Below, piece after piece: positions 3,334 through 62,074 of a stretch of 64,000 nt of DNA. This DNA comes from Escherichia phage vB_EcoM-ZQ1. The notes under the pieces are model-generated. The model did not search any database and had not been told where the DNA came from. It saw only the letters and a program-made list of their open reading frames with translations. The position numbers and the translations under genes are program-made. The stretch lies in the sequence record MW650886.1; one strand, written 5' to 3'. Numbering within the stretch: the first letter of the stretch is position 1; each line of letters starts with the position of its first letter.

Positions 3334-3368
3334 CAATAAACAAAAGGAGCTGCTATTATAGCAGCCCC
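3334..3368 (-). terminator. intrinsic terminator
   Basis: GCTGCTA-TTA-TAGCAGC hairpin followed on the minus strand by TTTTGTTTATT. Confidence 0.5.
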
Positions 3369-4236: not shown

Positions 4237-4305
4237 AATAAAAAACCCTTTCGTTATTAAGACCGTATCCGCGGCATATTGTTGTTCTGACTGTGTAGTG
4301 AGAAC

Positions 4306-4334
4306 ATAATATACTGCATTTTCATAGATGTAAA
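4306..4334 (-). promoter_or_regulatory. sigma70-like early promoter (-35 TTTACA, 17 nt, -10 TATTAT)
   Basis: Hexamers read directly on the minus strand upstream of the 3400..4236 gene. Confidence 0.4.
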
Positions 4335-4426
4335 CTACTTTTTATTGAAAAGAAAGTTAACACCTTAGTGTTATAAGGTGCGCGACCAAGCGGAGCGCGA
4401 ACTTGCGTGAATATTAACTTTCTACG

Positions 4427-5472: not shown

Positions 5473-5534
5473 GTTATAGCCTCATCATTTAGGATTACCT
5501 GTTCACGAATTATCCCTCGGAACGGGTTATAGAA

Positions 5535-8360: not shown

Positions 8361-8373
8361 ATCTTATATTGAA

Positions 8374-8613
8374 TTAACCTTTAAGCACTTGATTTGCTGG
8401 GTCAATTTCAATAATGTCGAACACGTCCGAAAACGTCTTCTTACCTTCGTCGTGCGTGTGATACTCAACGACATATGAGCGACCATCAGGGGTAACGTAA
8501 CGAATACGATCCGTCTGGTCGGCATTCTCGTTCAGACTACCCACACGCCAGCGCATGGAGCCAGGAAGGAACTCGGAGGCTTTCATTGCGCTGTAAATTG
8601 ATTCTTTGCTCAT
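8374..8613 (-). CDS. hypothetical protein
   Basis: 79 aa minus-strand ORF in the gene array. Confidence 0.4.
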   Translation of the reverse strand: MSKESIYSAMKASEFLPGSMRWRVGSLNENADQTDRIRYVTPDGRSYVVEYHTHDEGKKTFSDVFDIIEIDPANQVLKG

Positions 8614-12112: not shown

Positions 12113-12121
12113 TGCTATAAT
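12113..12121 (+). promoter_or_regulatory. possible extended -10 promoter (TGcTATAAT)
   Basis: TGCTATAAT in the long non-coding stretch upstream of the gp5-like gene; no clear -35. Confidence 0.25.
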
Positions 12122-14470: not shown

Positions 14471-14557
14471 AATTTCTTCCTGAATGCCGGAGCCACGACT
14501 AACATGAAGTGGGGACTGCCAGCTGCATGCCCAGCTCTTTGTAATCTTGCATGAGGA

Positions 14558-15019
14558 CTACTCCGCCAGGGTGATCACAACCATATTTAAGACTGTGTCG
14601 ATAGCTCGGCCTGTTTCCTCTTCATGGAGGGTTTCGGCGCGGAGGTGCACGTCGGTGATGAAATTGTCGATGTGCATTGAAGTCAGGTACGGGCGGTGCT
14701 GGGATAATGGACGGTTGGCCATCACATAATTGCGCAGTGTGTTGAAGTCCTGATGAGAGCATTCTGTGGTATCGATACGGAGGAAGCGTTCGTTGTGTCT
14801 TGTCTTCAACTCAGTTGCTTTCCCGAGGTAGACCAGAGGTCCATTGCGACCGATACGGAACATGACATCAACAACAGACTTGAAGATTTCGCGTTCAATC
14901 AGTGCGGTGGGTGACCAGCAGATCTCTTCTTTGTCGTCGGCGTACAGGGTGTCGATCACCAGAGGAAGCTGAATGTAACCGAAGTTGTGCAGTGGGTTGG
15001 TAAGTACCTTGTTTGTCAT
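14558..15019 (-). CDS. hypothetical protein (possible GIY-YIG endonuclease, EndoII-like)
   Basis: 153 aa; PLVYLGKATELKTRHNE resembles T4 EndoII ELVYIGKTKNLRKR; weak call; carries the conserved leader/start motif. Confidence 0.3.
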   Translation of the reverse strand: MTNKVLTNPLHNFGYIQLPLVIDTLYADDKEEICWSPTALIEREIFKSVVDVMFRIGRNGPLVYLGKATELKTRHNERFLRIDTTECSHQDFNTLRNYVMANRPLSQHRPYLTSMHIDNFITDVHLRAETLHEEETGRAIDTVLNMVVITLAE

Positions 15020-15068
15020 GATATAGTTCCCGCTTTCAATTTGTGGCGAATGCCAATGAATTACTGGG

Positions 15069-15097
15069 AAGTATAAGCGCAGGGATTATAGAAGTAA
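15069..15097 (-). promoter_or_regulatory. early promoter (-35 TTTACT, 17 nt, -10 TATACT) abutting a hairpin
   Basis: GGGGCTTTACTTCT...TATACTTC; same architecture as the cassettes at 27987 and 61083. Confidence 0.5.
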
Positions 15098-15117
15098 AGC
15101 CCCTCAATGAGGGGCTT
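15095..15117 (-). terminator. hairpin after nrdH (terminator element of a promoter-hairpin cassette)
   Basis: AAAGCCCCTCATTGAGGGGCTTT inverted repeat immediately followed by the TTTACT -35. Confidence 0.45.
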
Positions 15118-15124
15118 TGGCTTG

Positions 15125-16462: not shown

Positions 16463-16532
16463 GTTTCTTTCCTGATTAATAAGGGGTGATCTCTCACCCC
16501 TGATGATATAACGGTAGTAGGTTTAGACCAAT

Positions 16533-21733: not shown

Positions 21734-21806
21734 GATGTAATTCCTCATAATGTAGTTGGTGCGTTTCACTTTTCATTCGGCGGTGTGTTGCCGCCCTATG
21801 TGAACT

Positions 21807-21835
21807 ATAATAGTGCATCATTATTGAAGAGTAAA
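21807..21835 (-). promoter_or_regulatory. early promoter (-35 TTTACT, 17 nt, -10 TATTAT)
   Basis: TTTACTCTTCAATAATGATGCACTATTAT upstream of the 21245..21733 gene. Confidence 0.45.
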
Positions 21836-21867
21836 GTCTTTTTCAATAATTTTTAAAAATTATTTTT

Positions 21868-21901
21868 GAAGTATTTTAAAAGGCCTCGTCGAATGAGGCC
21901 T
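21868..21901 (-). terminator. intrinsic terminator
   Basis: AGGCCTC-GTCGAAT-GAGGCCT hairpin followed by TTTTAAAATAC on the minus strand. Confidence 0.5.
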
Positions 21902-21929
21902 GGAGGGAAGTAATGTGAAGTAAAAAGTT

Positions 21930-24236: not shown

Positions 24237-27200
24237 TCAGATCTTAATCTGCATGTTGCCACCCAGGGACTGCTCGTACTCGCTGTATGCGCCTTCCCCG
24301 TAGTCTCGTGCCCACTGGTCAGACTGCTGGGCGCTATCCAGAGTCATCAGGTTTGGTTCAGTCGGGTTGTAACCCTTGGACTTCGCATCCCGGTACAGAG
24401 TCTGCAGGTACTGGTTGGCGCGGTCAATCTGAGCTTTGAACTCGCGATATGCCCCTTCAGTTGTGTTGCGGCGGAAGGTGATATCCCAGTCCACGTTCAG
24501 AGTCTGACCATCACGGCTTGCATAGATCTGCCAATCCAGGTCGCGGCCTTTTGGTGCGTTGTCGCGGATGGAGTCGGCGTATGCCGCAAGGTCGTCCTTC
24601 GGATTGTGCGACGTGCTTTTCAGAAGTAGTGCATGACCCATACCACCGTTTGGCTCAAGAGACCATTTTCCTGTTTCTCTTCCCAGGCGTTCTATGTTGT
24701 TGAGTTGGTTTATCGACAATTCAGAAGAGTCAAATAATACCACATCACGTTTTTTGGGGGTTCTCACATAAGGGGTGAGATCAATGTCGATCATCCGGTT
24801 TATAAATTCTACCACTTCAGCTTGTTTCTTTGGCAATGTGGTATTGATATCCGGCTTGTTTGCCACTTTCTCTAGGCGTTTATTTTCTGCGCTTATCATG
24901 GACAGCATAATTTGTGTAACTTTGCCGTCAGACAAGTTGTAATCATTCCAAATCACTTCACCTTTATCCGTGATGGTTATATCGTTCAAGAACACCTGGT
25001 TTGGGTTGTATGACTGACTTTTCAACTGTTGGAGGTTTCTGGAAAGATATACCATTTTTGATGAAATCTCATCAATCACACTCTGGACCATATCTTTGTT
25101 TAAAGGAAGTTCATATGTCTTCGGATTGTTCAGGGTACGCCCTTTCTGAGAGACAATTGGGGTGAATGCAACTTTACCTTTGTCGTAGTAATAGGTCACG
25201 TTGGTTATCATAGAAGTACCGGCGTATTTTCCCGTTTCGGGGAAATTGACATCCCACCGAATGGACATGCCGTTGACAGTCTCACCAAACACCATGGCGT
25301 TGCTTGGTATCTTCAGGGTTCCAGAGTTGACCAGATCAGCGCCTTGGGCATTCAGGTCGATAGAACCATAGATAGCCCCGGTAATACGATCTTTCAACAT
25401 CAGGGTCTTGTCGCCCTTCTCTGGGATGATTTCCAGCGGGTGCTTGCCACGCGGAGGTTCTTTGATGAGTTCCAGTAGAGCAGTTTTCCCTGGTTTCACA
25501 CGATTCAGGACAGCGTCGGACACTGTCAGAGTCCAGTTTGCGGTTTCCACATAACCCCAGCCCCGAGAACGGCGAATGGCTTTGATAGGATATGGAGCGC
25601 TTGTTGGCACTGCGCTAATTTCCCATTTGCCAGTGTACTGGGTCTTGGCAACCTCAAAGATGGACGCAATTACTGCATTGGCGACGTCACGGGCGCTACC
25701 TTTGGCCACGTTCTCCTCTTCAGCAATTTCGCTGAAAACTGAGTATTGAACGAAACCAGCGAGGACGTTTGTGAAGTTGACAACGATAACCAACCCGCCT
25801 GCTGTCGTGTAACGACCAGCGCCCACACGACGGATGTTTTCACCAGGAAGAATAGAAGTGTCCAACCCAACGTTGGTATCAATGATACCCAGAACACGAG
25901 CGATGAAACCACTGTCACGTAATTGATCAACACTGGTTGCACCCTCGGTCGAATCCGATGCGGATTTAGACACTTTGTTCAACTTGATAGAGACAAGGGT
26001 TTCCCCGTTGACACCGATGATATCCCATTCAGTACCCTGCTCGTTCGAGGTGCGGGCAATCTTGCGCTTTGAATTGATGGCACCTTCGTAACGCCCGTTC
26101 TTGACCACAACAGAGGCAGTAGCAGCATCAGTCGCACTTGCTGCATTTGAAAAGTCTGGGTCAGAAATACTGATGTCGACGTCACCGTTTTGAGAACGCA
26201 TGCGAACACCGTTTTTGAATCGTTCAACGTTTACTTCTCGAGCACCAAGTCGTTTGGCATCAATAACAGCAGTTCCAGAACCGATAATGTTGGCTGGGTT
26301 ATTTCTGTCTGAACTGTTTTGAGAACCTTTCCAAAATTTTGTAGACGCCATGGTGAAATCATTCAGGATATTGATAGGGACTTGCGGTAATTTCAACTGA
26401 CGAGCAATGAAATCAGCACTTTGCCCACGCACAGGTTTCTCATTCATGTATGCGCCAACATACACGCCCGGCTCATTGTAGTGGGGAGCGATATTTGCCG
26501 TGTTCGTGCGGCCTCTCTCCTTACCAGCCCATAACAACATGGGCTGATCCCCGTTTGAAGTTAATTTCCATCCGTTGCCATTGCTGGTGTCATTGCTGGT
26601 GTCATTGCTGGTGTCAACGTCCACCACCAGAATTATCTGAGCACCTTTCTTGAAAGTGTACTGATCGTACATACCTTTCTTCTGTTTGGTCATGGACGCA
26701 CCGACCAAGTCTTGGTTGGTGAAGCCGCGCTTCATATTCCAAGATACCTCAGTCCCGTCTGGATATTTGTCAAAATCATAACCATAGAATGTGGCTACTT
26801 CTTTCGAACCGCTTATCAGACGGACGTAATTTCCACGAATCGGGTCTCGCCCGCTCTTCAACTCCAGACCAGTGTCCGAGCTGTTGTACCACTCGCGGTT
26901 GACTTCTATTTCAGAAGAACCAGCCCCAACTCCCACATCCGGAGTATTGTTCTGAACCGGAACGTCACCGACTTTGTCTGGATCATCCCAGGTGATACCC
27001 TGCATCTTCGGACCGTCGAATACCTGAGCCGGATCTTTACCCTTACGAACTAGCCACACATAACCACGGTCAGGAACAGGCGCGTAGGTCAGGTCCATGA
27101 CGTTCAGTTTCTGCTTCAGGCCGGACTGGCGGATGATCTTAGGAATCAGGGTCATACCGCGATCCAGCGCTTTCTTAGAGAAGTTGACAGCAAAGCCATC

Positions 27201-27527
27201 GATGGTCTTACCCAGAGGGGTCGCCATGAATTGTTTGGTCGCTTCGATCATGGAAGCGATAACGCGCATTGGGTTCTTGAAGCGAGCGATGGCGTCAGGA
27301 TAGACGGAGCCGCGCTTCTGGCCGATGAAAACCTGACGAACGCTCTTGCCCAGCCCCTGAGGAGTATAGAACTGAATGCGGTATTCCTTATCATCTTCGT
27401 CGACGAAGGTAAAGAACACATCGCCTGCGTTCTTCTTACCCATGGTCAGCTCATACGGAGCGGAGTTGAACGCTTCGTCTAACTGATCTCTTTCCTGCAT
27501 GAACTGGAGGAAACTTAGCTTTGACAT
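24237..27527 (-). CDS. large hypothetical protein (1096 aa) with internal (DTSN)x3 repeat
   Basis: Long uninterrupted ORF with AGGAGA SD; no family recognised. Confidence 0.6.
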   Translation of the reverse strand: MSKLSFLQFMQERDQLDEAFNSAPYELTMGKKNAGDVFFTFVDEDDKEYRIQFYTPQGLGKSVRQVFIGQKRGSVYPDAIARFKNPMRVIASMIEATKQFMATPLGKTIDGFAVNFSKKALDRGMTLIPKIIRQSGLKQKLNVMDLTYAPVPDRGYVWLVRKGKDPAQVFDGPKMQGITWDDPDKVGDVPVQNNTPDVGVGAGSSEIEVNREWYNSSDTGLELKSGRDPIRGNYVRLISGSKEVATFYGYDFDKYPDGTEVSWNMKRGFTNQDLVGASMTKQKKGMYDQYTFKKGAQIILVVDVDTSNDTSNDTSNGNGWKLTSNGDQPMLLWAGKERGRTNTANIAPHYNEPGVYVGAYMNEKPVRGQSADFIARQLKLPQVPINILNDFTMASTKFWKGSQNSSDRNNPANIIGSGTAVIDAKRLGAREVNVERFKNGVRMRSQNGDVDISISDPDFSNAASATDAATASVVVKNGRYEGAINSKRKIARTSNEQGTEWDIIGVNGETLVSIKLNKVSKSASDSTEGATSVDQLRDSGFIARVLGIIDTNVGLDTSILPGENIRRVGAGRYTTAGGLVIVVNFTNVLAGFVQYSVFSEIAEEENVAKGSARDVANAVIASIFEVAKTQYTGKWEISAVPTSAPYPIKAIRRSRGWGYVETANWTLTVSDAVLNRVKPGKTALLELIKEPPRGKHPLEIIPEKGDKTLMLKDRITGAIYGSIDLNAQGADLVNSGTLKIPSNAMVFGETVNGMSIRWDVNFPETGKYAGTSMITNVTYYYDKGKVAFTPIVSQKGRTLNNPKTYELPLNKDMVQSVIDEISSKMVYLSRNLQQLKSQSYNPNQVFLNDITITDKGEVIWNDYNLSDGKVTQIMLSMISAENKRLEKVANKPDINTTLPKKQAEVVEFINRMIDIDLTPYVRTPKKRDVVLFDSSELSINQLNNIERLGRETGKWSLEPNGGMGHALLLKSTSHNPKDDLAAYADSIRDNAPKGRDLDWQIYASRDGQTLNVDWDITFRRNTTEGAYREFKAQIDRANQYLQTLYRDAKSKGYNPTEPNLMTLDSAQQSDQWARDYGEGAYSEYEQSLGGNMQIKI
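26579..26614. repeat. in-frame 12-nt x3 perfect tandem repeat inside the 1096-aa gene
   Basis: CATTGCTGGTGT x3 on the plus strand, encoding DTSNDTSNDTSN on the minus strand. Confidence 0.7.
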
Positions 27528-27602: not shown

Positions 27603-27938
27603 TTATTTTTGAACTTGGGCTACAGACATCGCCCAGAGCGGGAGGGTGTGGGGGTCCAGGGCTTCCAGTAGATATTCGACGCGCTCTGACATGATACCTT
27701 CAGGGAAGTTTACTTCTTCTGGTTCGTTGTTGGCCGTCCAACCCAATGTCAGTCCTTCAGCGTGATGGATGATATAAACGAAGTCGTCTGGTTCGTAGTC
27801 CTTTTCCATCAGGGCGAAGAAATCTTCCATTTCTTCGTCGGAGAAGTAGTAGATGCGAGGTACAGAGCCGTCAGCAAAGTGCTCAGCACCCTGGAAGGCA
27901 AACATGTCATCGGCGGTGAAGTTCTTGAGTTGTGTCAT
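27603..27938 (-). CDS. hypothetical protein
   Basis: Start MTQLK preceded by the conserved leader TTGAAAAGCAGGAACTATATCATG. Confidence 0.45.
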   Translation of the reverse strand: MTQLKNFTADDMFAFQGAEHFADGSVPRIYYFSDEEMEDFFALMEKDYEPDDFVYIIHHAEGLTLGWTANNEPEEVNFPEGIMSERVEYLLEALDPHTLPLWAMSVAQVQK

Positions 27939-27986
27939 GATATAGTTCCTGCTTTTCAAGTTGGTGTCGTACTGCTTATGGAATGA

Positions 27987-28015
27987 AGTATAGGAAAGGA
28001 TATTGAAGAAGTAAA
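27987..28015 (-). promoter_or_regulatory. early promoter (-35 TTTACT, 17 nt, -10 TATACT) within a promoter-hairpin cassette
   Basis: TTTACTTCTTCAATATCCTTTCCTATACTTCATTCCATAAGCAG, near-identical to the cassette at 61083. Confidence 0.5.
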
Positions 28016-28031
28016 GGGGCGAAAGCCCCTT
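28014..28031 (-). terminator. hairpin (terminator element of a promoter-hairpin cassette)
   Basis: AAGGGGC-GAAA-GCCCCTT; T-rich on both sides. Confidence 0.45.
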
Positions 28032-28044
28032 TTATTGAATTATT

Positions 28045-28683
28045 TTACGGCGTCGGATTCACAACCGGAATGTGGGATCGAATACCTGCGATGATGTCCT
28101 TCAGCCGAGGATTCCATCCACCCACCAAACGGGGGAGAGCGATAGCGCCAGGCTGGACCAAAATGATGTCGCTGCCTGTGATATTGTGCTGAGGGAACTG
28201 AGCAAGGTACTGCTCCATGGCGACACCCTCATCAATCAGAACAGGACCGACATCAGATGACGCGTAGGTTGCACCCAGACCGTCAACGCCCCATGCCAAG
28301 ATACCCCAGTCAGGGATGTTGGCTTCAGATGTGATGGTGAATCCAAACACGGTGTTCAGCGAAGTAAAGGAATAGACATCGTGGGTGATGTCATACACCA
28401 GATACCCCTTGGCCAGCATATCGGCAAAGATCGCGTCCGTATCGCCAACAGCCGGAGTCGGCACAGTAAACAACAGCTCGCCATCAGGAGGAGCAGGATA
28501 CGTGCCGAGGGCATAGAGGCACCATGCATCAATGCACTTCTTAATGAACGCCTCTGGCGCGACATAATCAGCAAGGCGAACCGTACCTGAGTACTCTGAT
28601 ACGATAATGCCTTCCTTCGCACCCTGTAGAGCAATGAAGACCAAGATATGTTCATATCCGGCCTGAGATGGAGTGATGTTCAT
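28045..28683 (-). CDS. hypothetical protein
   Basis: Start re-set to MNITPSQ (TAATG overlap with the upstream gene). Confidence 0.45.
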   Translation of the reverse strand: MNITPSQAGYEHILVFIALQGAKEGIIVSEYSGTVRLADYVAPEAFIKKCIDAWCLYALGTYPAPPDGELLFTVPTPAVGDTDAIFADMLAKGYLVYDITHDVYSFTSLNTVFGFTITSEANIPDWGILAWGVDGLGATYASSDVGPVLIDEGVAMEQYLAQFPQHNITGSDIILVQPGAIALPRLVGGWNPRLKDIIAGIRSHIPVVNPTP

Positions 28684-38375: not shown

Positions 38376-39038
38376 TTACACCTCCACCGCGTGAGACTTC
38401 AGGAGTTCATCAATCTCTTTCTGTCCCATGTATGAGAACGGGGTGCGCTGGTAGAACGCCCAGAGTACTAACTGGACAACAGCACGGGAACGGGTTTCGG
38501 CCGTCATCACCAGGCCACTGAAATGAGGAGACTCAGCTGTCCATTGTATATCTTCGCCCAGGTCTTGATTACAGGTCACCGAGATGCGGAACTTGTTGCA
38601 CAGATTGTCGACTTCTTTGTACGCATCGGTAGACACACGAAGTTGTTCCGCATGTACCCACGGAGTTGTGATGATTCTTTCACCCAACGTCTTTTCTGAA
38701 ACGAACCAATCAATAGATTGGGTAAACTCGCTGAAATGGTCGATACGATAAATGCAGTCTCCCCCTTCCATAGAACGCATGGCATGATAGCGAGCGTCGA
38801 TTTCGTTGTTGTGCATCGCGTTGAAGTCGATGAACACGCGACGCGCCAGCACAACATCTTCTGGTTGAAGTGCCAGGAAATCGTTCAGGCGGCTATAATG
38901 GAGGATATTGGAACCGTCGTGGCCACGTGTGCAATATGCGTAATGGCTACCGATACGGGCGTGGGCAATATAAGACAACGGGGCGAAGAATAATCCGTCA
39001 GGATCAGGACCGACGATAATAGAATAAAGTTTTTCCAT
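38376..39038 (-). CDS. hypothetical protein
   Basis: Start re-set to MEKLYSII, preceded by the conserved ACTATATCATG start context. Confidence 0.45.
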   Translation of the reverse strand: MEKLYSIIVGPDPDGLFFAPLSYIAHARIGSHYAYCTRGHDGSNILHYSRLNDFLALQPEDVVLARRVFIDFNAMHNNEIDARYHAMRSMEGGDCIYRIDHFSEFTQSIDWFVSEKTLGERIITTPWVHAEQLRVSTDAYKEVDNLCNKFRISVTCNQDLGEDIQWTAESPHFSGLVMTAETRSRAVVQLVLWAFYQRTPFSYMGQKEIDELLKSHAVEV

Positions 39039-39094
39039 GATATAGTCACTCAAATGAAAGGGCAGCTTTATGATAAGCCGCCCGAGGTTATTGA

Positions 39095-41013: not shown

Positions 41014-41092
41014 GGCGATTCTCCTTATTTCATTGGATGAAATGATAGGCGGCTCACCATGATGAGTAAAGGGATTCAATAAACTATCGTAT

Positions 41093-42022: not shown

Positions 42023-42393
42023 AACGTACCCCCGACAGAGATCAAGAACTCTTCTTGCATGGTCTTGACCGGGTGGTGGTTGCGGGTTTCGAACATGAAG
42101 CCCCAGCCACCGTCGGCGACGTTACCAAAGGTCTTGACACCAAAGGACTTCGTCCCGTTGGAGCAGGAATAGATGTCCAGGACGTATGGGCTACCCTGAT
42201 TGTCGATCCCACGATTCACGTCGTCTGATACACAGCGCTCAATCATCTTCCCGTTCTTATACAGAACGAGGTCTTGACCATACGCCTTGAAAGCATAAAC
42301 ACCGTTGGTAGACACTCCGGTGATGACAGGAGGGGCGGAAACAGCAGCAAAGGAAGCGCCTAGCAGGGCAACAGCGAGGATTAACTTTTTCAT
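42019..42393 (-). CDS. secreted protein (signal peptide)
   Basis: Start MKKLILAVALLGASFAAVSA preceded by the conserved leader motif. Confidence 0.45.
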   Translation of the reverse strand: MKKLILAVALLGASFAAVSAPPVITGVSTNGVYAFKAYGQDLVLYKNGKMIERCVSDDVNRGIDNQGSPYVLDIYSCSNGTKSFGVKTFGNVADGGWGFMFETRNHHPVKTMQEEFLISVGGTL

Positions 42394-42445
42394 GATATAG
42401 TCTCTTGGTTTCAAATGGGCGGGGTATGATTACCCCGCCGTGGGT

Positions 42446-42952
42446 TTATAGGGTAACAAGTGATACGGTAAAAACCATCGTCCCGTCTGTTGCCATTTTT
42501 CTTGAAACTGGTATGACGCGAGGCTGGCAGAATATCCATTCTTTCTCCATGGACGCCAAGTCCAGCATATCCATTTCTGATTCATCGCCTTTGTTCACAA
42601 ATTTTTCTAGAGAACCATAGACATTAAGCCCCTCCGGGAGTCTGTTTCGATGTTTGTAACAAATGCGGGCAACAGCTTTGGTTCCGTACGATTTAGAAAA
42701 TTTTTTGGCCACATGCTTCAGTTCACTGAAGCTAAGACAAGAATCCCATGTCTGGAACATGTCGCCTCGTTCAAACATCATCTCTAAACGCGCAACGTCC
42801 TCTTTAGGCAGCCCGCGATAAAGTGTGGTCGTCTGTGGTTCGCGCAATTCTTGCACCAGATCACGGACGGCAGGGGAAACAGTACCGGGGCGCATGATGT
42901 GGGACTTATCATGGACGAGGTAAAATAAATCTTGAATTTGTTGATCAGTCAT
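42446..42952 (-). CDS. hypothetical protein
   Basis: Start MTDQQIQ with AGGAACTATATCATG context. Confidence 0.45.
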   Translation of the reverse strand: MTDQQIQDLFYLVHDKSHIMRPGTVSPAVRDLVQELREPQTTTLYRGLPKEDVARLEMMFERGDMFQTWDSCLSFSELKHVAKKFSKSYGTKAVARICYKHRNRLPEGLNVYGSLEKFVNKGDESEMDMLDLASMEKEWIFCQPRVIPVSRKMATDGTMVFTVSLVTL

Positions 42953-43011
42953 GATATAGTTCCTGCATTTCAAATAGACGGGGTAATCATACCCCGCCCA
43001 AAGTTATAGAA

Positions 43012-43251
43012 TTAGCTGATATGCTTCAGAAGAGCGAAGAGGATCACGGCCTTGGCCTTTACCTTTCCTACGATGCCTGTCTCGACATCAACTTCTTCAG
43101 CAACCCACTCTTTTCCCTTCTTGCTGATGATAACGTCACGACGCTGTGCGTAGACTTCTTTGGTCGCATACACACGACGGAACCCTTTAGCGCGGAGCAA
43201 TCCCCAATTGCGATCAATCTCTACTGAAGTTTCGACCATTTTGTTCTTCAT
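43012..43251 (-). CDS. hypothetical protein
   Basis: 79 aa; promoter-hairpin cassette upstream. Confidence 0.4.
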   Translation of the reverse strand: MKNKMVETSVEIDRNWGLLRAKGFRRVYATKEVYAQRRDVIISKKGKEWVAEEVDVETGIVGKVKAKAVILFALLKHIS

Positions 43252-43302
43252 GATATAATCTTACCTTTCAACCCGGTGAACCCATCGTTCGCCAGTTATT
43301 GA

Positions 43303-43331
43303 ATAATAGGACATTCCTTAGAGGAAGTAAA
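43303..43331 (-). promoter_or_regulatory. early promoter (-35 TTTACT, 17 nt, -10 TATTAT) after a repeat hairpin
   Basis: GGGGTTTACTTCCTCTAAGGAATGTCCTATTAT. Confidence 0.45.
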
Positions 43332-43367
43332 CCCCTAAAAGTAAAAATCCCCAACGTTTGTTGGGGA
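43324..43367. repeat. 44-bp direct repeat, copy 1 (contains an 11-bp-stem hairpin)
   Basis: GAAGTAAACCCCTAAAAGTAAAAATCCCCAACGTTTGTTGGGGA, identical to 43683..43726. Confidence 0.7.
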
Positions 43368-43384
43368 TTTAATAAAAGTTATGC

Positions 43385-43609
43385 CTATTTAATTTCTCGG
43401 CTTGAATTTTCTAGTTCTAATTTTCTTATAGCAGAAATTCTGCCTTCATCAGTTGCGGGAAACTCCCAAACAGCACGACGCCCGTTGTTGGTATCACAAC
43501 TTGCCAGCCAGCAGAAATTAGAGGGGTCCTTAAACAAGACCAATTTAGGGTTAGCAATATTGTTCAGGCAAAATGGGGTGAGGTCAACAACACATGATAT
43601 AGCAGACAT
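43385..43609 (-). CDS. hypothetical protein
   Basis: 74 aa; promoter-hairpin cassette upstream. Confidence 0.4.
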   Translation of the reverse strand: MSAISCVVDLTPFCLNNIANPKLVLFKDPSNFCWLASCDTNNGRRAVWEFPATDEGRISAIRKLELENSSREIK

Positions 43610-43668
43610 AATATATACCTTCTTTCAATGAACGGGAACGCCCCGCTCTATGAATTCAATAATACGCA

Positions 43669-43697
43669 TTTACATTATAGAAGTAAACCCCTAAAAG
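43669..43697 (-). promoter_or_regulatory. early promoter (-35 TTTACT, 17 nt, -10 TATTAT) after a repeat hairpin
   Basis: GGGGTTTACTTCTATAATGTAAATGCGTATTAT. Confidence 0.45.
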
Positions 43698-43726
43698 TAA
43701 AAATCCCCAACGTTTGTTGGGGACTT
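43683..43726. repeat. 44-bp direct repeat, copy 2
   Basis: Identical 44-mer 359 bp downstream of copy 1; each copy precedes a small gene. Confidence 0.7.
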
Positions 43727-43729
43727 CTG

Positions 43730-46459: not shown

Positions 46460-46552
46460 GGTTAGTCGACCTTCACTTCAGTAACACCAGGTATTTCACG
46501 GACATGGGCCAGGCCTCTGTTTGTTAGTCATGGCGTATTATACTGCGAAGGG

Positions 46553-46798
46553 TTAATTGAAACGCCCAGCATTTACGCTGGACGTTATTGATATTGAAAA
46601 GGTTTTGACAAACTCAGGATTTGGAGGAAGCACCCTTCCATGTCTGCCGTCGCCATGGGCATGGCAACCGACACGGGCATCACATGGAGTGCACACCCAG
46701 AACTTCAGATTGCGGAGGTCAGGGCGATGAGGGTAGAGAACATCACCACCGACGAATTCGGCTGGGAGGCCACAGTAATCACATATAACAGGTTTCAT
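46553..46798 (-). CDS. zinc-ribbon protein
   Basis: CDYCG...CTPCDARVGCH; start MKPVICDY chosen because the longer listed ORF begins inside the upstream terminator hairpin. Confidence 0.4.
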   Translation of the reverse strand: MKPVICDYCGLPAEFVGGDVLYPHRPDLRNLKFWVCTPCDARVGCHAHGDGRHGRVLPPNPEFVKTFSISITSSVNAGRFN

Positions 46799-47274: not shown

Positions 47275-49293
47275 TTAGAACACAACTTTCACAGTGCGGT
47301 TGAACGAACCGCTCACCTTCACGAACACGTGGTTGCGTTGGGTGGTAGAGAAGCCCAGACCGGACAGCTGCTCAGTGCTTGGCTGTACTTTAATCTTACC
47401 ACCTAACATTTCAAAAACCTTGCGGTGTTTATCAAGTTCCGGCTTCAGATATTCGTTATAGAAACCACGGGTGCCGACAGGGTTAGCACAACCTTCCAGG
47501 ATGAAGAACACGTGCTTGTTGCCAGTCTGCTCGCCGTCCCAATGGTTTGGTGAGTTCAGAACCAGCTGTACCTTCTGGAAGACGGAGGTCTTGATACCCC
47601 AGATTTCCTGAGAGCGAGCGTCGTCTTTCAGGGTAGAACTGATGTCAACCACCTGACCAGCGCGAACCTGAACCACAACAGCCAACGTGCGATCTTTGTT
47701 ACCCAGGCCAGGGTGTGAGAAGCGCTTAGTCTGACCTTTGTATTCAACTTCGATTTCGAAACCAACGTCACAGGTTTCACGCTTGTTGAAGTTGGTGACA
47801 TAGAACTCATAATTCCCGTCGCGCAGCTTGCTTTCATCGCTAAAGAAGATGTTCTCCACCGGACGGCGGTTTGGATCAATGCCGTCCATACCGTTCATGT
47901 CGATGTCCAGAGTTGCGCCAGTTGACGAACGACGGTTGCGAAAATATACGTGGTTGTGAAGAGGATCGTTCATGCTCAGATCCAGGTCGTCGTTGTTATG
48001 CCAAGCCAGTGACACGCGGAGGAAGCTGTCGACATTGCCGCCTGCGGTCTTCACGCGCTCTTTGATGGAGTCGGCCACTTCGCCATTGTACGACCAGCTG
48101 AAGCCGTTGTTCCACTTGAACAGGTTAGGAGCGCCTGCGGTAGCCGGAGCGATCAGGGACATCAGGTTGCCAATGTGAGAGTTTTCAACCAGTACTTCCA
48201 GGGAATGCGCCTTTGGCAACACGTTGGTCAGGAAGTCGTCGATCGTGATCTCTTCAACCTTGTCCAGGGACTTGGTCGGAGTCTTCACTTCAGACGCCAG
48301 CTGAGCAAACGGGTCCATCTTCTTCTGAGCTGCCAAATCGGCGAACAGAACGTTGTTGATGGTCAGATCGTCATACACGGCATAACGGCGACCCAGTGAA
48401 TCAGTCAGACCCAGCGCTTCGACTTCTTTCTGCGCGTTTTCAATCATCGACTTCGTGACCAGCGCGGTTGGGCGCTTGTAGTTCGTCGGAGCGACTTTGG
48501 CTTCAAAGGACTTCACGGCGGTTTCCAGATCCCGGCCTTCATTGAGGTCTACCAGCAGAGAGCCAATCACGGTATTACGAATGCCGTGAGGGATATGACC
48601 GTTTGCACGGTAGCCAGTGCGCCAAGCCCACAGAGCGCGTTTCTCTTCTGCAGTTTGTTCGTACAGGGTCTTGTTCACCACGAACGCCTGCACTGCCGCT
48701 TTGTGCTCTTCACCGCGATACAGAGAATTCTGGTCAATCAATTCCAGAACGATTTCAGCCGATTCCAGAGACAGTTCACGCAGGCCGCGCTCAAACACTT
48801 CAATCGCCTGGCGGATTTCACCCTTCTTAGAAGCGATGGTATCTGCCCGCAGAACATAGCTACCCAGCAGGTCGGTGTGGAAGTGGTTGTAGGTGCGGAC
48901 AATACCGTCTTTCATTTCGTGATTCGACCCAACACCAACTTTCTTGGTGTCGTTGAAGTACACATCGACGATTGCGTGCTGCTTAACATATGCTGACAGC
49001 GCCGCAGCGACAACGTCGTATTCGTTACCCAACTGAATGTTATCCCAGATAGAGATCACGTTCAGGTCGGAGTCGATGGTGACCACACCGCCGATATTAC
49101 GGATGAATTGTTTACAGCAGGTACAGTCGTGCTCGGTACGCTCACGATAAAGCGGGTTAGTGCCAGCAGGGAAAGAAGACAGATACAGATCCCACAGAGC
49201 ATCTTTATCGATGTTGGTCATGAACAGACCAGTTGCTGACATGGCCAGCACGTTATTGTTGACAGCTACTGCGAAGGGCTTAAAATCTGACAT
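47275..49293 (-). CDS. large hypothetical protein (672 aa)
   Basis: Long ORF with GGAAG SD; no family-B polymerase motifs (DxxSLYPS, YGDTDS) seen on inspection. Confidence 0.6.
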   Translation of the reverse strand: MSDFKPFAVAVNNNVLAMSATGLFMTNIDKDALWDLYLSSFPAGTNPLYRERTEHDCTCCKQFIRNIGGVVTIDSDLNVISIWDNIQLGNEYDVVAAALSAYVKQHAIVDVYFNDTKKVGVGSNHEMKDGIVRTYNHFHTDLLGSYVLRADTIASKKGEIRQAIEVFERGLRELSLESAEIVLELIDQNSLYRGEEHKAAVQAFVVNKTLYEQTAEEKRALWAWRTGYRANGHIPHGIRNTVIGSLLVDLNEGRDLETAVKSFEAKVAPTNYKRPTALVTKSMIENAQKEVEALGLTDSLGRRYAVYDDLTINNVLFADLAAQKKMDPFAQLASEVKTPTKSLDKVEEITIDDFLTNVLPKAHSLEVLVENSHIGNLMSLIAPATAGAPNLFKWNNGFSWSYNGEVADSIKERVKTAGGNVDSFLRVSLAWHNNDDLDLSMNDPLHNHVYFRNRRSSTGATLDIDMNGMDGIDPNRRPVENIFFSDESKLRDGNYEFYVTNFNKRETCDVGFEIEVEYKGQTKRFSHPGLGNKDRTLAVVVQVRAGQVVDISSTLKDDARSQEIWGIKTSVFQKVQLVLNSPNHWDGEQTGNKHVFFILEGCANPVGTRGFYNEYLKPELDKHRKVFEMLGGKIKVQPSTEQLSGLGFSTTQRNHVFVKVSGSFNRTVKVVF

Positions 49294-49407
49294 GATGTAA
49301 TCTTCCTGTTTCAGTTCAAATGTGCGCCCCGTTTGCCAGGGCGCTTCGTTTAAGTGAGGTCAATATACGCTGGATTGAGTTATTGAAGAACGAAGTAAAG
49401 GGAATCT

Positions 49408-53493: not shown

Positions 53494-53576
53494 CATTTCA
53501 GCCTCGTGTAGAAGAATCATTTCAAATAGGCGGGGAACGCCCCGCCCACACATTATAGCATCAGGCTGGAGATTGA

Positions 53577-60759: not shown

Positions 60760-61041
60760 TTAGAACAAATGCTCGCCTTCCACATGGTATGCTAACACGC
60801 CGTCAGAACATTCAAAATACATGTTATCATATTCCCACAGAGCGGTGATTTCTTCACCCTGGCAAACCACCGAAAACTTCGGCTGGCTGGCCTTAACTGG
60901 AAATTTTTCAGGGGAAGAGATTGGGGTGAATTTGGCATTTCTGACGGCCATACCAACAAATTGCTGCAATGTTACTTTGTAACGAGAGTGGGTGATAGTG
61001 CCAGCATTCAGGGCTTCGATCAATTGCGCTTTAGTTGTCAT
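60760..61041 (-). CDS. hypothetical protein
   Basis: 93 aa; conserved leader/start motif and promoter-hairpin cassette upstream. Confidence 0.4.
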   Translation of the reverse strand: MTTKAQLIEALNAGTITHSRYKVTLQQFVGMAVRNAKFTPISSPEKFPVKASQPKFSVVCQGEEITALWEYDNMYFECSDGVLAYHVEGEHLF

Positions 61042-61082
61042 GATATAGTTCCTTCATTTCAGAGTCAGTGTTGTGCTGCTTA

Positions 61083-61110
61083 TGGAATGAAGTATACGGG
61101 GTTTATTGAA
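61083..61110 (-). promoter_or_regulatory. early promoter (-35 TTTACT, 16 nt, -10 TATACT) embedded in a hairpin
   Basis: ACGGGGTTTACTTCTTCAATAAACCCCGTATACTTCATTCCATAAGCAG. Confidence 0.5.
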
Positions 61111-61143
61111 GAAGTAAACCCCGTATTCAACTTTTTATTGAAT

Positions 61144-61380
61144 TTATTTAAAACGGTCAGGAAGGGTGTCGTGAACCTCGGCGCTCAGCACCAGAAACTT
61201 ACCATCCGTCGTTGGGAAGCAATAGTCTTTCTTGATGTGACGCAAGTGTTCAGCTACAGCTGCCACGCAGTCATCTGTCACGTCGGTCTTCTCACCAACC
61301 CACATGCTGGTTTTGGTGTTCAACCTGCCCTGGAATATAGTACCAGTGAGAGGACTTGCGCCGATCTTTTTGATAATCAT
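61144..61380 (-). CDS. hypothetical protein
   Basis: 78 aa; GAGG SD. Confidence 0.4.
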   Translation of the reverse strand: MIIKKIGASPLTGTIFQGRLNTKTSMWVGEKTDVTDDCVAAVAEHLRHIKKDYCFPTTDGKFLVLSAEVHDTLPDRFK

Positions 61381-61829: not shown

Positions 61830-61849
61830 CATGATATAGATCCTTCCTT

Positions 61850-62074
61850 TCAAAGAATGTTGTGTTCGTCGATATCGGACTGCGTTGCAATCTCCCAGCG
61901 GACGATGTTCTCGGTTGTGATGAAATCACGGTTCAGGTGAGAGGCTGGAACATACACCATCGTGTCGACCATGAAGTAACACTGCTCATTGTTACAAGAA
62001 TCAACGTAAACCTCGATGAGGCACACCTCGGCAACACCGGCTTTCGGCTTCTTCACGATCTTTTTCAAGTACAT
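61850..62074 (-). CDS. hypothetical protein
   Basis: Start MYLKK with GAGGG SD. Confidence 0.4.
   Translation of the reverse strand: MYLKKIVKKPKAGVAEVCLIEVYVDSCNNEQCYFMVDTMVYVPASHLNRDFITTENIVRWEIATQSDIDEHNIL

What the first reader, a model, noticed from the sequence alone, without database searches (positions are those of the whole stretch)
27987..28031. Reiterated promoter + hairpin + conserved leader cassettes between small early genes
At least seven intergenic sites on the minus strand carry a GC-rich hairpin fused to a sigma70-like promoter (-35 GTTTACT, 16-17 nt, -10 TATACT or TATTAT): 15069-15117, 21807-21835, 27987-28031, 43303-43370, 43669-43729, 61083-61117 and, without the hairpin, 4306-4334. 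Several copies share much longer identity, e.g. TTTACTTCTTCAAT...TATACTTCATTCCATAAGCAG at both 27987 and 61083, and a 44-bp identical repeat at 43324 and 43683. This matches the mobile promoter-early stem-loop cassettes described in T4-type phages, which drive small-gene expression and act as recombination sites for module shuffling.
Basis: partly seen in the sequence, partly recalled or inferred. Interest (0 to 1): 0.6.

Follow-up and report, generated by a model that had tools for sequence, protein, structure and literature searches.

The report
Repeated promoter-terminator cassettes in a phage
This phage carries seven copies of a small switch (terminator hairpin, T4-style early promoter, shared leader) between its genes; related phages have gained, lost or swapped genes exactly at these copies, a behaviour known in T4-like phages but not reported for this family.

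Summary
The window is an Agtrevirus (Ackermannviridae) genome segment. The motif TTTACW-N16-17-TATWMT occurs at seven loci (8 hits). All are on the minus strand, all are intergenic and all lie 42-67 nt upstream of a start codon; shuffles give 0.05 hits. Stable hairpins abut or overlap the -35 in five cassettes and lie 25-43 nt upstream in two. A shared leader end (TTGAAA..AGGAACTATATCATGA) is also real and recurs in promoter-less gaps.

The anatomy matches every sequence-level feature of the PeSL cassettes of T4-like phages, including the T4/PST promoter consensus. Three gene-content differences with relatives have their breakpoints inside repeated copies: the 74-aa gene 43385-43609, the 168-aa gene 42446-42952, and Ag3 orf112. 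The gene after the cassette at 61091 has been replaced several times.

That 84-nt cassette is 94% identical across four genera. The neighbouring gene is 78% identical, and the downstream genes are unrelated.

Promoter activity, termination and mini-circle formation are untested. Verdict: a real PeSL-like system, a new member of a known kind in a family where only isolated promoters had been listed. Interest is moderate.

The parts
4237..4426 (-). Cassette P4306 (divergent member). Weak hairpin 4360-4381, UP-like TTTTCAATAAAAAG 4338-4351, -35 TTTACA 4329-4334, -10 TATTAT 4306-4311, then a ~63-nt leader to the ATG at 4236 of a 278-aa gene.
   Evidence: It corresponds to Porf069 in Table S2 of the Ag3 paper. 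Strict motif present at the equivalent position in YX22, AV101 and RPN242.
15020..15124 (-). Cassette P15070. Terminator hairpin AAAGCCCCTCATTGAGGGGCTTT 15096-15118, whose 3' arm and T-run overlap the -35 TTTACT 15093-15098. -10 TATACT 15070-15075, leader hairpin 15045-15054, translation-initiation motif TTGAAAGCGGGAACTATATCATG 15017-15039.
   Evidence: (dG -16.6, z -4.3). Present in Ag3, YX22, AV101 and RPN242.
21734..21929 (-). Cassette P21807 (divergent member). Terminator AGGCCTCATTCGACGAGGCCTTTT 21878-21901, AT-rich palindrome 21838-21867, -35 TTTACT 21830-21835, -10 TATTAT 21807-21812, leader hairpin GGCGGCAACACACCGCC 21779-21795, ATG at 21733.
   Evidence: Present in Ag3, YX22, AV101 and RPN242. 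The Ag3 paper lists an out-of-register 'Porf100' here.
27936..28044 (-). Cassette P27987 (the site given in the finding). UP-like AATAATTCAATAAAA 28030-28044, terminator hairpin AAAAGGGGCTTTCGCCCCTTT 28013-28033 running into the -35 TTTACT 28010-28015, -10 TATACT 27987-27992, shared leader TCATTCCATAAGCAGTACGACACCAAC 27960-27986, translation-initiation motif TTGAAAAGCAGGAACTATATCATG 27936-27959.
   Evidence: (dG -13.5, z -4.7). Conserved in four genera. Ag3 and Det7 carry an extra gene (orf112-like) directly after it. In Ag3 that gene is bounded by a duplicated copy of the initiation motif.
43252..43384 (-). Cassette P43303. Terminator hairpin AAATCCCCAACAAACGTTGGGGATTT 43345-43370, -35 TTTACT 43326-43331, -10 TATTAT 43303-43308, leader hairpin 43273-43295, initiation motif 43249-43271. 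Contains copy a of the 44-bp exact repeat (43324-43367).
   Evidence: (dG -16.3, z -5.3). It is the only copy retained in AV101, YX22, RPN242 and PC3.
43610..43729 (-). Cassette P43659. Hairpin 43701-43726, two overlapping promoters (TTTACT 43696-43701 with N16 and TATAAT 43674-43679; TTTACT 43682-43687 with N17 and TATTAT 43659-43664), leader hairpin GAGCGGGGCGTTCCCGTTC 43630-43648, initiation motif 43607-43629. Contains copy b of the 44-bp repeat (43680-43723).
43385..43609 (-). 74-aa gene (phrog_22629, function unknown) enclosed by cassettes P43659 and P43303. This is a cassette-bounded variable module.
   Evidence: Absent, together with one repeat copy, from AV101, YX22, RPN242 and PC3. 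Replaced by the unrelated orf139 in Ag3. Found in 31 phage records overall. In the three fetched, one each from Agtrevirus, Kuttervirus and Taipeivirus, it occupies the same slot.
61039..61148 (-). Cassette P61091. UP-like AATAAATTCAATAAAAAG 61131-61148, palindrome ATACGGGGTTTACTTCTTCAATAAACCCCGTAT 61094-61126 enclosing the -35 TTTACT 61113-61118 and the spacer, -10 TATACT 61091-61096, leader 61064-61090, initiation motif CTGAAATGAAGGAACTATATCATG 61039-61062.
   Evidence: (dG -16.4, z -5.5). Mean pairwise identity across four genera is 94%, against 78% for the adjacent coding sequence. A 41-nt core is invariant.
60760..61041 (-). 93-aa gene (phrog_10263) occupying the variable slot headed by P61091.
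   Evidence: The same gene is in Ag3 and Dickeya phage JA15. Other genes sit there in AV101 (330 nt), CBA120 (465 nt), T751 (423 nt) and IME250 (300 nt). It is mostly deleted in YX22, RPN242 and PC3.
42953..43011 (-). Promoter-less hairpin plus leader module HT2. Hairpin GGGCGGGGTATGATTACCCCGTCT 42976-42999, then ATTTGAAATGCAGGAACTATATCATG 42950-42975.
   Evidence: repeat family D6; dG -18.8.
42394..42445 (-). Promoter-less hairpin plus leader module HT1. Hairpin GGCGGGGTAATCATACCCCGCC 42418-42439, then CATTTGAAACCAAGAGACTATATCATG 42391-42417. It is a direct repeat of HT2.
   Evidence: (dG -18.3).
42446..42952 (-). 168-aa variable gene lying between HT2 and HT1, with a PHROG match to 'RNA polymerase ADP-ribosylase'.
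   Evidence: Present in the window and AV101. Absent from Ag3, YX22, RPN242 and PC3, with the junction inside the repeat. There are two junction types: a hybrid GTCTATTTGAAA+CCAAGAGAC in YX22 and PC3, and GCCCATTTGAAACC in RPN242. phrog_832 E=5.7e-15; no Pfam or PDB hit.
39036..39083 (-). A further hairpin plus ..TTTGA.. plus CTATATCATG leader without the TTTACT promoter (HT3).
49291..49344 (-). Hairpin plus ACATTTGAAC..AGGAAGATTACATCATG leader (HT5). The same gap (49294-49407) carries a degenerate TTTACTTCGTTCTTCAATAAC..TATATT remnant with a spacer too long to work as a promoter.
53518..53547 (-). Hairpin GGGCGGGGCGTTCCCCGCC plus TATTTGAAATG (HT4), preceded by an extended -10 sequence TGCTATAAT at 53552-53560.
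61830..61855 (-). Leader-only copy CTTTGAAAGGAAGGATCTATATCATG (HT6).

Best explanation
These are PeSL-type regulatory cassettes in an Ackermannviridae (Agtrevirus) phage. Each intergenic unit is built from up to three modules.

1. A GC-rich hairpin with a T-run ends or attenuates transcription coming from the upstream gene.
2. A host-sigma70-dependent promoter of the T4 early type re-initiates transcription. It has an AT-rich UP-like TTCAATAAA box, a -35 of G(G/C)TTTACTTC, a spacer of 16-17 nt and a -10 of TATACT or TATTAT.
3. A 42-67-nt leader, often a 5' hairpin followed by (A)TTTGAAA, a purine-rich Shine-Dalgarno sequence and CTATATCATGA, provides a common translation start.

Because the same 25-75-nt sequences recur in direct orientation, the phage's own T4-like recombination machinery can cross over between copies. 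That deletes, inserts or swaps the gene lying between or after them without disturbing its neighbours.

Shown here: the repeats, their anatomy, their conservation, and breakpoints that fall inside them. Inferred: promoter and terminator activity, early timing, and the recombination pathway.
For: Identity of the phage. The window is 97-98% identical to Escherichia phages YX22, PC3, AV101 and RPN242, and 92% to Shigella phage Ag3, an Agtrevirus. It carries T4-like gp33, gp55, gp45 and RegA genes.

Motif statistics. There are 8 hits at 7 loci, all on the minus strand and all intergenic, against 0.05 expected. The consensus equals the T4/PST PeSL promoter TTTACW-N17-TAYWAT.

Hairpins. Free energies are -9 to -19 kcal/mol and z-scores -3.8 to -5.5. 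Their positions (upstream of the -35, overlapping the -35, between -35 and -10, downstream of the -10) match the PeSL subclasses described.

Leader. The motif GGAACTATATCATGA with up to 3 mismatches gives 10 hits against 1.6 expected, all on the minus strand and 9 at start codons.

Recombination signatures.
- The 356-bp module carrying gene 43385-43609 and one 44-bp repeat is missing from four relatives, which keep a single cassette. Ag3 holds a different gene in the same slot.
- Gene 42446-42952 is missing from four relatives, with two different junctions inside the hairpin/leader repeat.
- Ag3 orf112 is flanked by a duplicated leader end.
- In the whole window-versus-Ag3 comparison, only these events show junction repeats of 20 nt or more, at 28 and 61 nt.
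- The two tandem cassettes in Det7 resemble each other in the spacer more than they resemble their counterparts in the window, which suggests concerted evolution.

Portability. P27987 and P61091 share about 85% identity from the -35 to the ATG but precede unrelated proteins. The slot after P61091 holds at least four different genes, or a deletion, among ten phages.

Constraint. P61091 is 94% identical across four genera, against 78% for the adjacent coding sequence. Window versus CBA120 shows 1 mismatch in 89 aligned nt of the cassette, against 34 mismatches in 79 third-codon positions of the adjacent gene.
Against: There is no transcription-start, reporter or termination data for any Ackermannviridae phage in the searched literature.

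Four of the seven cassettes (4306, 15070, 21807, 43303) sit at fixed positions ahead of conserved genes in all the Agtrevirus relatives examined. No cassette was seen at a new locus in a relative, so there is no evidence that the elements themselves move.

Most of the roughly 18 window-versus-Ag3 breakpoints involve homing endonucleases or gaps without repeats. The cassettes therefore explain only part of the plasticity.

In Ag3 the strict motif is confined to this region, with 6 of 7 genome-wide hits. It is absent from the plus-strand rIIA-side region, which probably also holds early genes. It is therefore not the phage's only early promoter type.

From my own knowledge, Ackermannviridae DNA carries hypermodified thymidines. 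Recognition of these T-rich hexamers by sigma70 on such DNA has not been tested.
Confidence: 0.8

Rival explanations
1. These are ordinary, vertically inherited promoters and terminators. They resemble each other only because all must fit the same polymerase and ribosome. Recombination at them is incidental, since any short repeat would serve, and no 'cassette' concept is needed.
For: Four of the seven sites are at fixed positions ahead of conserved genes in all the Agtrevirus relatives examined. Many indels in the window occur without repeats or through homing endonucleases. No copy was found at a new locus.
Against: Identity extends well beyond the functional consensus. There is a 44-bp exact repeat extending to 73 nt at 84%, and about 85% identity over 85 nt between P27987 and P61091, including the spacer and the whole 5' UTR, ahead of unrelated proteins. 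The only indel junctions with repeats of 20 nt or more lie in these elements. Three slots headed by cassettes are polymorphic across genera.
Confidence: 0.15
2. The extra conservation, above all of P61091, reflects a second function layered on the promoter. The palindrome ACGGGGTTTA..TAAACCCCGT and the TTCAATAA boxes could be an operator for a phage or host DNA-binding protein. The 5' UTR could be a target for translational control, for example a RegA-type repressor. This would not exclude the best explanation.
For: A 41-nt core, including the loop and spacer, is invariant in six phages of four genera, while the stop-proximal AT-rich tract just upstream is only 60% identical. TTCAATAA recurs at about -50 and about -27. 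The phage encodes RegA and an HU/TF1-like protein.
Against: No binding data exist. There is no Rfam match. The invariant hairpin shows no covariation, so it gives no information. The test for sequestration of the Shine-Dalgarno sequence in read-through transcripts compared with promoter-initiated ones gave small and inconsistent differences.
Confidence: 0.2
3. The repeats stem from a single recent local duplication around 43.3-43.7 kb plus chance promoter-like matches elsewhere.
For: The longest repeat pair is a tandem pair 356 bp apart.
Against: The same tandem pair exists in the Kuttervirus Det7. The other five sites are conserved in relatives, and chance expectation is 0.05 hits. The P27987 and P61091 cassettes lie 33 kb apart and both are present in four genera.
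Confidence: 0.02
4. They are middle-type (MotA-type) or late-type (gp55-type) promoters rather than early sigma70 promoters.
For: The cassettes lie among replication and nucleotide-metabolism genes, which are delayed-early or middle genes in T4.
Against: There is no TGCTT Mot box at about -30 and no TATAAATA late box. A clear -35 is present at 16-17 nt spacing.
Confidence: 0.05

Closest known systems
PeSL (promoter-early stem-loop) cassettes of T4-like phages RB49/phi1, T4/PST and KVP40/nt-1 (Arbiol et al. 2010, PMC2839356; Comeau et al. 2014, PMC4122927)
   Same: Repeated intergenic composite made of an AT-rich region with the upstream stop codon, a sigma70-type promoter, a G..C-rich stem-loop in variable register with the promoter, and a Shine-Dalgarno sequence with start codon. 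The promoter consensus is identical to the T4/PST type, TTTACW-N17-TAYWAT. Small genes of unknown function are flanked by two copies. Deletions and replacements between close relatives have crossovers in the loop, in the leader or between the -10 and the Shine-Dalgarno sequence.
   Different: The host phage family is Ackermannviridae, not Straboviridae. There are only about seven copies per genome, concentrated in one 65-kb minus-strand region, rather than dozens in several hyperplastic regions. Several copies are fixed at conserved positions across genera. One copy (P61091) is nearly invariant across four genera. The shared leader/translation-start module also exists without a promoter. Promoter, terminator and mini-circle activities have not been shown here.
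Bacteriophage T4 early promoters (sigma70-dependent, -35 GTTTAC, A-rich UP region)
   Same: The -35 is G/C-TTTAC-T/A, the -10 is TAT(A/T)(C/A)T, the spacer is 16-17 nt, and an A/T-rich box lies at about -45 to -55.
   Different: The conserved extension into the spacer (TTTACTTCTTCAATA) and the initial transcribed sequence (TCATTCCATAAGCAG) are specific to this family. Activity has not been measured.
Morons of lambdoid phages (a gene with its own promoter and terminator inserted between genes)
   Same: Gene 43385-43609 comes with its own promoter and terminator and is dispensable in relatives.
   Different: [quoted passage not shown]
Integron gene cassettes
   Same: One conserved promoter-bearing site (P61091) is followed by a slot that holds different genes in different genomes.
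   Different: No integrase or attC-like site was identified. Exchange is most simply explained by homologous recombination between short repeats.

Membership tests
PeSL cassettes (Arbiol 2010; Comeau 2014) | Repeated composite motif located in intergenic spaces | tested here: met
   Seven promoter-bearing copies and at least six promoter-less hairpin/leader copies, all intergenic and all on the minus strand.
PeSL cassettes (Arbiol 2010; Comeau 2014) | Sigma70-like -35 and -10 boxes with a spacer of about 17 nt (T4/PST type TTTACW..N17..TAYWAT) | tested here: met
   All seven fit TTTACW-N16-17-TATWMT. The consensus is quoted.
PeSL cassettes (Arbiol 2010; Comeau 2014) | [quoted passage not shown] | tested here: met
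   TAAAATAATTCAATAAAA at P27987 and TAAATAAATTCAATAAAAAG at P61091; AT-rich tracts at P4306 and P21807. The feature is less clear at P15070, P43303 and P43659, where the hairpin intervenes.
PeSL cassettes (Arbiol 2010; Comeau 2014) | Stable stem-loop, often G-run..C-run, next to or overlapping the promoter | tested here: met
   Free energies -9.4 to -16.6 kcal/mol and z-scores -3.8 to -5.5 for the six promoter-associated hairpins folded (the two promoter-less HT hairpins reach -18.8). The registers are overlapping the -35 (four cassettes), enclosing the -35 and spacer (P61091), upstream (P4306, P21807) and also downstream of the -10 as leader hairpins.
PeSL cassettes (Arbiol 2010; Comeau 2014) | Shine-Dalgarno sequence and start codon of the downstream gene at the 3' end | tested here: met
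   The ATG lies 42-67 nt after the predicted start site. The shared motif AGGAACTATATCATGA is enriched, with 10 hits against 1.6 expected.
PeSL cassettes (Arbiol 2010; Comeau 2014) | Association with insertions, deletions and replacements between closely related phages, with crossovers inside the element | tested here: met
   Alignments A1, A2, A3, A4 and A6 and overlapping BLAST junctions of 28 and 61 nt. This holds for three of the seven promoter cassettes plus the HT1/HT2 pair, not for all.
PeSL cassettes (Arbiol 2010; Comeau 2014) | Strong promoter activity and efficient termination in vivo | not testable with these tools
   No transcript or reporter data were found for this phage family.
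PeSL cassettes (Arbiol 2010; Comeau 2014) | Formation of circular excision products ('mini-circles') during infection | not testable with these tools
   This needs inverse PCR or deep sequencing of infected cells.
PeSL cassettes (Arbiol 2010; Comeau 2014) | Occurrence in T4-like myoviruses (Tevenvirinae/Straboviridae), as originally described | tested here: not met
   The closest records are Ackermannviridae; Aglimvirinae; Agtrevirus. This feature describes where the family was found, not how the element works.
Integron-like gene capture | Site-specific recombinase plus attI/attC recombination sites | tested here: inconclusive
   The annotations of five relatives list no integrase in the region. 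I made no dedicated search for a recombinase.

The most novel reading that the evidence does not exclude
The 84-nt P61091 cassette could be more than a promoter. It is about 94-100% identical across Agtrevirus, Limestonevirus, Kuttervirus and Taipeivirus, while the neighbouring gene has diverged at 43% of its third-codon positions. It might be a dedicated, actively targeted gene-exchange site, an integron-like 'docking' linker recognised through its invariant palindrome by a phage protein. It would capture different early genes behind one conserved expression signal. Alternatively the palindrome could be the operator of a family-wide switch that shuts off early transcription.
Probability: 0.12. 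Interest if true: 0.7.

Novelty: new member of a known kind. Interest (0 to 1): 0.45.

Why it matters
The finding extends the PeSL idea, in which regulatory cassettes double as linkers for modular gene exchange, from T4-like Straboviridae to the Ackermannviridae. That family is widely used for biocontrol of Salmonella, E. coli O157, Shigella, Klebsiella and Dickeya. In it, only a handful of isolated 'tentative sigma70 promoters' had been listed.

It gives a concrete map of likely early transcription units. It explains several presence/absence differences in small accessory genes between near-identical therapeutic phages, including a candidate RNA-polymerase ADP-ribosylase. It also identifies natural, transcriptionally insulated insertion slots that could be used for phage engineering: after P61091, after P27987, and between P43659 and P43303. 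The near-invariance of one promoter and leader across four genera is a testable lead to an unrecognised regulatory constraint.

Tried and rejected
- The generic sigma70 and terminator consensus scans show no promoter enrichment over shuffles. Only the family-specific motif is informative.
- The Rfam gathering scan of the whole window returned nothing.
- I tested the idea that read-through transcripts sequester the Shine-Dalgarno sequence while promoter-initiated transcripts expose it, as for T4 lysozyme. Unpaired probabilities changed from 0.62 to 0.39 at two cassettes and hardly at all at the others. I dropped the idea as unsupported.
- Gene conversion between the P27987 and P61091 leaders was considered. 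The Taipeivirus counterparts of P61091 carry the P27987-type bases (T, G, CA), but so do all counterparts of P27987. Simple divergence after an old duplication explains this equally well.
- The candidate eighth promoter at 41042-41070 (TTTACT-17-TATCAT) lacks the extended family signature and does not appear among the 25 best-scoring positions of the matrix scan, which runs down to 9.4 bits. I did not count it.
- I did not run a permutation test of breakpoints against cassette-bearing gaps. Most breakpoints fall in intergenic gaps anyway, so the test would have little power. I used the junction-repeat signature instead.
- An exact-core scan of IMG/VR found only Ackermannviridae-sized contigs (152-161 kb, plus one 5.9-kb fragment) and no new context.
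- A PDB sequence search with the 168-aa protein gave no hit.
- Tool limitation: loci fetched in parallel, or after the first fetch since the last script, were not copied to the Python sandbox. Whole-region breakpoint analysis could therefore be scripted only against Ag3. The other relatives were compared through DNA alignment.
Full report
**What the window is.** Megablast places the window in the Ackermannviridae, subfamily Aglimvirinae, genus Agtrevirus. It is 97-98% identical to Escherichia phages YX22, PC3, AV101 and RPN242, and about 92% identical to Shigella phage Ag3. About 280 related records from Salmonella, Klebsiella, Dickeya and Serratia phages match at 60-90%. Nearly all genes lie on the minus strand. 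They include T4-like replication, recombination and nucleotide-metabolism genes, and the T4-type late-transcription set gp33, gp55 and gp45 plus RegA. The phage is T4-related but is not a T4-type phage in the strict sense.

**Checking the observation.** All seven sites exist as described.
- The strict pattern TTTACW-N16-17-TATWMT gives 8 hits at 7 loci. One locus carries two overlapping promoters.
- All hits are on the minus strand and none on the plus strand. All lie in the 8% of the window that is non-coding.
- In 300 dinucleotide-preserving shuffles the mean was 0.05 hits and the maximum was 1. Shuffling only the intergenic DNA gave 0.03.
- A matrix built from the seven sites scores them at 22-37 bits and the next best position at 16 bits (self-trained, so the gap matters more than the absolute scores).
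- The generic TTGACA/TATAAT scan is not enriched, so the signal is specific to this motif.
- The 44-bp exact repeat lies at 43324-43367 and 43680-43723, and extends to 73 nt at 84% identity.
- P27987 and P61091 are about 85% identical from the -35 through the ATG, yet the proteins they precede show no similarity.

**Anatomy.** Each cassette lies between the stop codon of one minus-strand gene and the start codon of the next. From 5' to 3' it contains the following.
1. The upstream stop codon, often embedded in TAATTC(A/T)ATAA.
2. An A/T-rich UP-like box, TTCAATAAA(A)G, at about -45 to -55.
3. A GC-rich hairpin.
4. The -35, G(G/C)TTTACTTC, often continuing as TTCAATA into the spacer.
5. The -10, TATACT or TATTAT.
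6. A 42-67-nt leader that commonly starts with another hairpin and ends in (A)TTTGAAA, a purine-rich Shine-Dalgarno sequence and CTATATCATGA.

The hairpins are stable, at -9.4 to -18.8 kcal/mol with z-scores of -3.8 to -5.5 against shuffles. Their register relative to the promoter varies:
- the 3' arm and T-run run into the -35 at P15070, P27987, P43303 and P43659;
- a palindrome encloses the -35 and spacer at P61091;
- the hairpin sits 25-43 nt upstream at P4306 and P21807.

The leader end is itself a repeat. GGAACTATATCATGA with up to 3 mismatches gives 10 hits against 1.6 expected, all on the minus strand and nine at start codons. It also occurs, usually behind a GGGCGGGG..CCCCGCC hairpin, in gaps with no TTTACT promoter: 42394-42445, 42953-43011, 39036-39083, 49291-49344, 53518-53547 and 61830-61855. 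The repeated material is therefore modular: terminator, promoter and leader, in varying combinations. Rfam finds no known RNA family in the window.

**Comparison with relatives.** I aligned the three busiest regions against Ag3, YX22, AV101, RPN242 and PC3, and then against other genera.

*Region 41.9-44.2 kb.*
- The window carries a 356-bp module, made of the 74-aa gene 43385-43609 and one copy of the 44-bp repeat. AV101, YX22, RPN242 and PC3 lack it.
- Those phages keep exactly one cassette, joined inside the repeat. Ag3 has an unrelated 95-aa gene in the same slot between its own two cassettes.
- The 74-aa gene occurs in only 31 phage records. In the three I fetched, one each from Agtrevirus, Kuttervirus and Taipeivirus, it sits in the same slot after the ACP-like gene.
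- In Kuttervirus Det7 it is again flanked by two cassettes. Their spacers are identical to each other but differ from the window's counterparts, which points to exchange between the tandem copies.
- In the same alignment, the 168-aa gene 42446-42952 (present in the window and AV101) is absent from Ag3, YX22, RPN242 and PC3.
- The junction lies within the hairpin/leader repeat, and two junction types exist. YX22 and PC3 have a hybrid, GTCTATTTGAAA+CCAAGAGAC. RPN242 has GCCCATTTGAAACC. This implies different crossover points.

*P27987.* The cassette is conserved in all phages examined. Ag3 and Det7 carry an extra gene (orf112-like) directly behind it. In Ag3 this gene is bounded by a duplicated TTGAA..AGGAACTAYAYCATGA.

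*P61091.*
- The cassette is present everywhere, but the gene behind it changes. The same 93-aa gene is in the window, Ag3 and Dickeya phage JA15. Other genes sit there in AV101, CBA120, T751 and IME250. Only a remnant is left in YX22, RPN242 and PC3, where the -35 has also mutated to TTTAAT.
- The exchanged segment begins immediately after the shared ATGA.

*Whole-window comparison with Ag3.* There are about 18 breakpoints. Only the events at 27935-27962 and at 42451/42949 show overlapping junction repeats of 20 nt or more (28 and 61 nt). Other differences involve homing endonucleases or repeat-free gaps. The cassettes therefore account for part of the plasticity, not all of it.

**Distribution and conservation.**
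- In the complete Ag3 genome the strict motif occurs 7 times. Six of these are in the region homologous to the window. None is in the plus-strand rIIA-side region. This is one promoter family among several.
- The 90-nt P61091 query matches 274 phage records, 214 of them at 95% or better. The surrounding 24 kb matches most of those genomes at only 60-90%.
- In an alignment spanning four genera, the cassette (61042-61125) has 94% mean pairwise identity. The adjacent conserved gene has 78%, the AT-rich tract just upstream has 60%, and the downstream genes are unrelated.
- Window versus CBA120 shows 34 mismatches in 79 third-codon positions of the neighbouring gene, against 1 mismatch in 89 aligned nt of the cassette.
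- A 41-nt core, ACGGGGTTTACTTCTTCAATAAACCCCGTATACTTCATT, is invariant in all six aligned phages.
- P27987 is conserved less extremely, at 82-92% across genera. It is clearly a paralogue of P61091 in all four genera.

**Most likely mechanism.** The hairpin with its T-run ends or attenuates upstream transcription. The T4-early-type promoter restarts it using host sigma70 polymerase. The common leader supplies a uniform translation start. Together these insulate each downstream gene or gene group. Because the same sequences recur in direct orientation, the phage's recombination system (UvsX, UvsY, gp46/47 and UvsW are all encoded here) can cross over between copies and so delete, insert or replace the intervening gene. 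The repeats, their anatomy, their conservation and the breakpoints are shown here. Promoter and terminator activity, early timing and the recombination pathway are inferred from the T4/PST consensus and from the PeSL experiments in RB49 and phi1. I found no transcript mapping for any Ackermannviridae phage.

**Comparison with what is known.** The closest described system is the PeSL cassette of T4-like phages (Arbiol 2010; Comeau 2014).
- All sequence-level defining features are met, including the variable hairpin register and crossovers in the loop or leader.
- In-vivo activity and mini-circles cannot be tested here.
- The original taxonomic setting is not met.
- Prior work on this family listed only isolated sites. 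Table S2 of the Ag3 paper names Porf069, Porf100 (out of register) and Porf138. These correspond to three of the seven sites and were given as tentative sigma70 promoters alongside 40 terminators. The LIMEstone1 paper found five early promoters by similarity to T4. Neither paper describes a repeat family or links it to gene exchange, and no PeSL paper in the library concerns the Ackermannviridae.

**Rival readings.**
- Pure functional convergence of ordinary promoters does not explain identity across the spacer and the whole 5' UTR ahead of unrelated genes. It also does not explain why junction repeats occur only at these elements.
- A single local duplication is refuted by the presence of the same arrangement in other genera.
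- A middle-type or late-type promoter does not fit the motif.
- A second, overlapping function for P61091, such as an operator or a translational-control target, remains open and is the main unexplained point. Its abrupt conservation boundaries fit selection on the element rather than hitch-hiking on a transferred block. Repeated exchange with crossovers at the cassette edges could give the same picture.
- A test of whether read-through transcripts mask the ribosome-binding site gave inconsistent results.

**Verdict.** This is a new member of a known kind, of moderate interest. The most interesting lead is the near-invariant P61091 promoter and leader, which heads a slot where the gene changes from phage to phage.

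Noticed in passing
window 42446-42952 (-): A 168-aa accessory gene, present only in the window and AV101 among six Agtreviruses, matches PHROG phrog_832 'RNA polymerase ADP-ribosylase' (E=5.7e-15). It has no Pfam or PDB sequence hit. It could be an Alt/Mod-like modifier of host polymerase, carried as a cassette-bounded optional gene.
   Followed up: partly
window 42418-42439 vs AV101 (L006); window 43345-43370 vs Det7 (L013): The loops of otherwise conserved hairpins are inverted, as reverse complements, between relatives: TAATCATA vs TATGATTA, and AAAC vs GTTT. This looks like template switching or flipping within the palindromes.
   Followed up: no
window 61042-61125 (-): This non-coding promoter and leader is far more conserved across four genera (94%, with a 41-nt invariant core) than the adjacent protein-coding gene (78%). 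The stop-proximal AT tract just upstream is only 60% identical.
   Followed up: yes
window 3355-3363 (-), 12113-12121 (+), 53552-53560 (-): Three intergenic TGCTATAAT extended -10 sequences, each oriented toward the downstream gene. TGNTATAAT gives 5 hits against 1.1 expected. Two lie in or next to hairpins. This may be a second promoter class. The Ag3 record annotates the first as an 'extended -10'.
   Followed up: partly
window 46494-46641: The window lacks about 3-4 kb that Ag3, YX22 and AV101 carry here, including the nicotinamide phosphoribosyltransferase and ribose-phosphate pyrophosphokinase genes.
   Followed up: no
window 62138-63610 (-): A 490-aa ORF is annotated as a homing endonuclease in RPN242 and PC3. 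Ag3 has three small ORFs at this position instead. Ag3 also has homing-endonuclease insertions that the window lacks, for example after PhoH at window ~19772.
   Followed up: no
window 24237-27527 (-): A very large ORF (1096 aa) of unknown function is mosaic and differs in length among relatives: 2919 nt in YX22, 2721 nt in AV101 and RPN242, and split or shorter in Ag3.
   Followed up: no
window 14471-14557 and 16463-16532: The window lacks small genes that relatives carry in these two gaps. At 14471-14557 it lacks the 327-351-nt gene after gp25 that is present in Ag3, YX22, AV101 and RPN242. At 16463-16532 it lacks the 294-nt gene between nrdB and nrdA that is present in Ag3 and RPN242. No junction repeat was seen in the comparison with Ag3.
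   Followed up: partly
many minus-strand stop codons, e.g. 28041-28047, 61141-61147, 43009-43015, 5532-5538, 8371-8377: Stop codons are frequently embedded in a recurring TAATTC(A/T)ATAA(C/A) motif. This merges with the UP-like box of the next promoter, and it also occurs where no promoter follows.
   Followed up: no
window 49294-49407 (-): A degenerate cassette: TTTACTTCGTTCTTCAATAAC..TATATT has the family's -35 and spacer words, but the spacer is too long to work as a promoter. A hairpin and the leader motif follow. It resembles the 'half PeSLs' described for T4-like phages.
   Followed up: no
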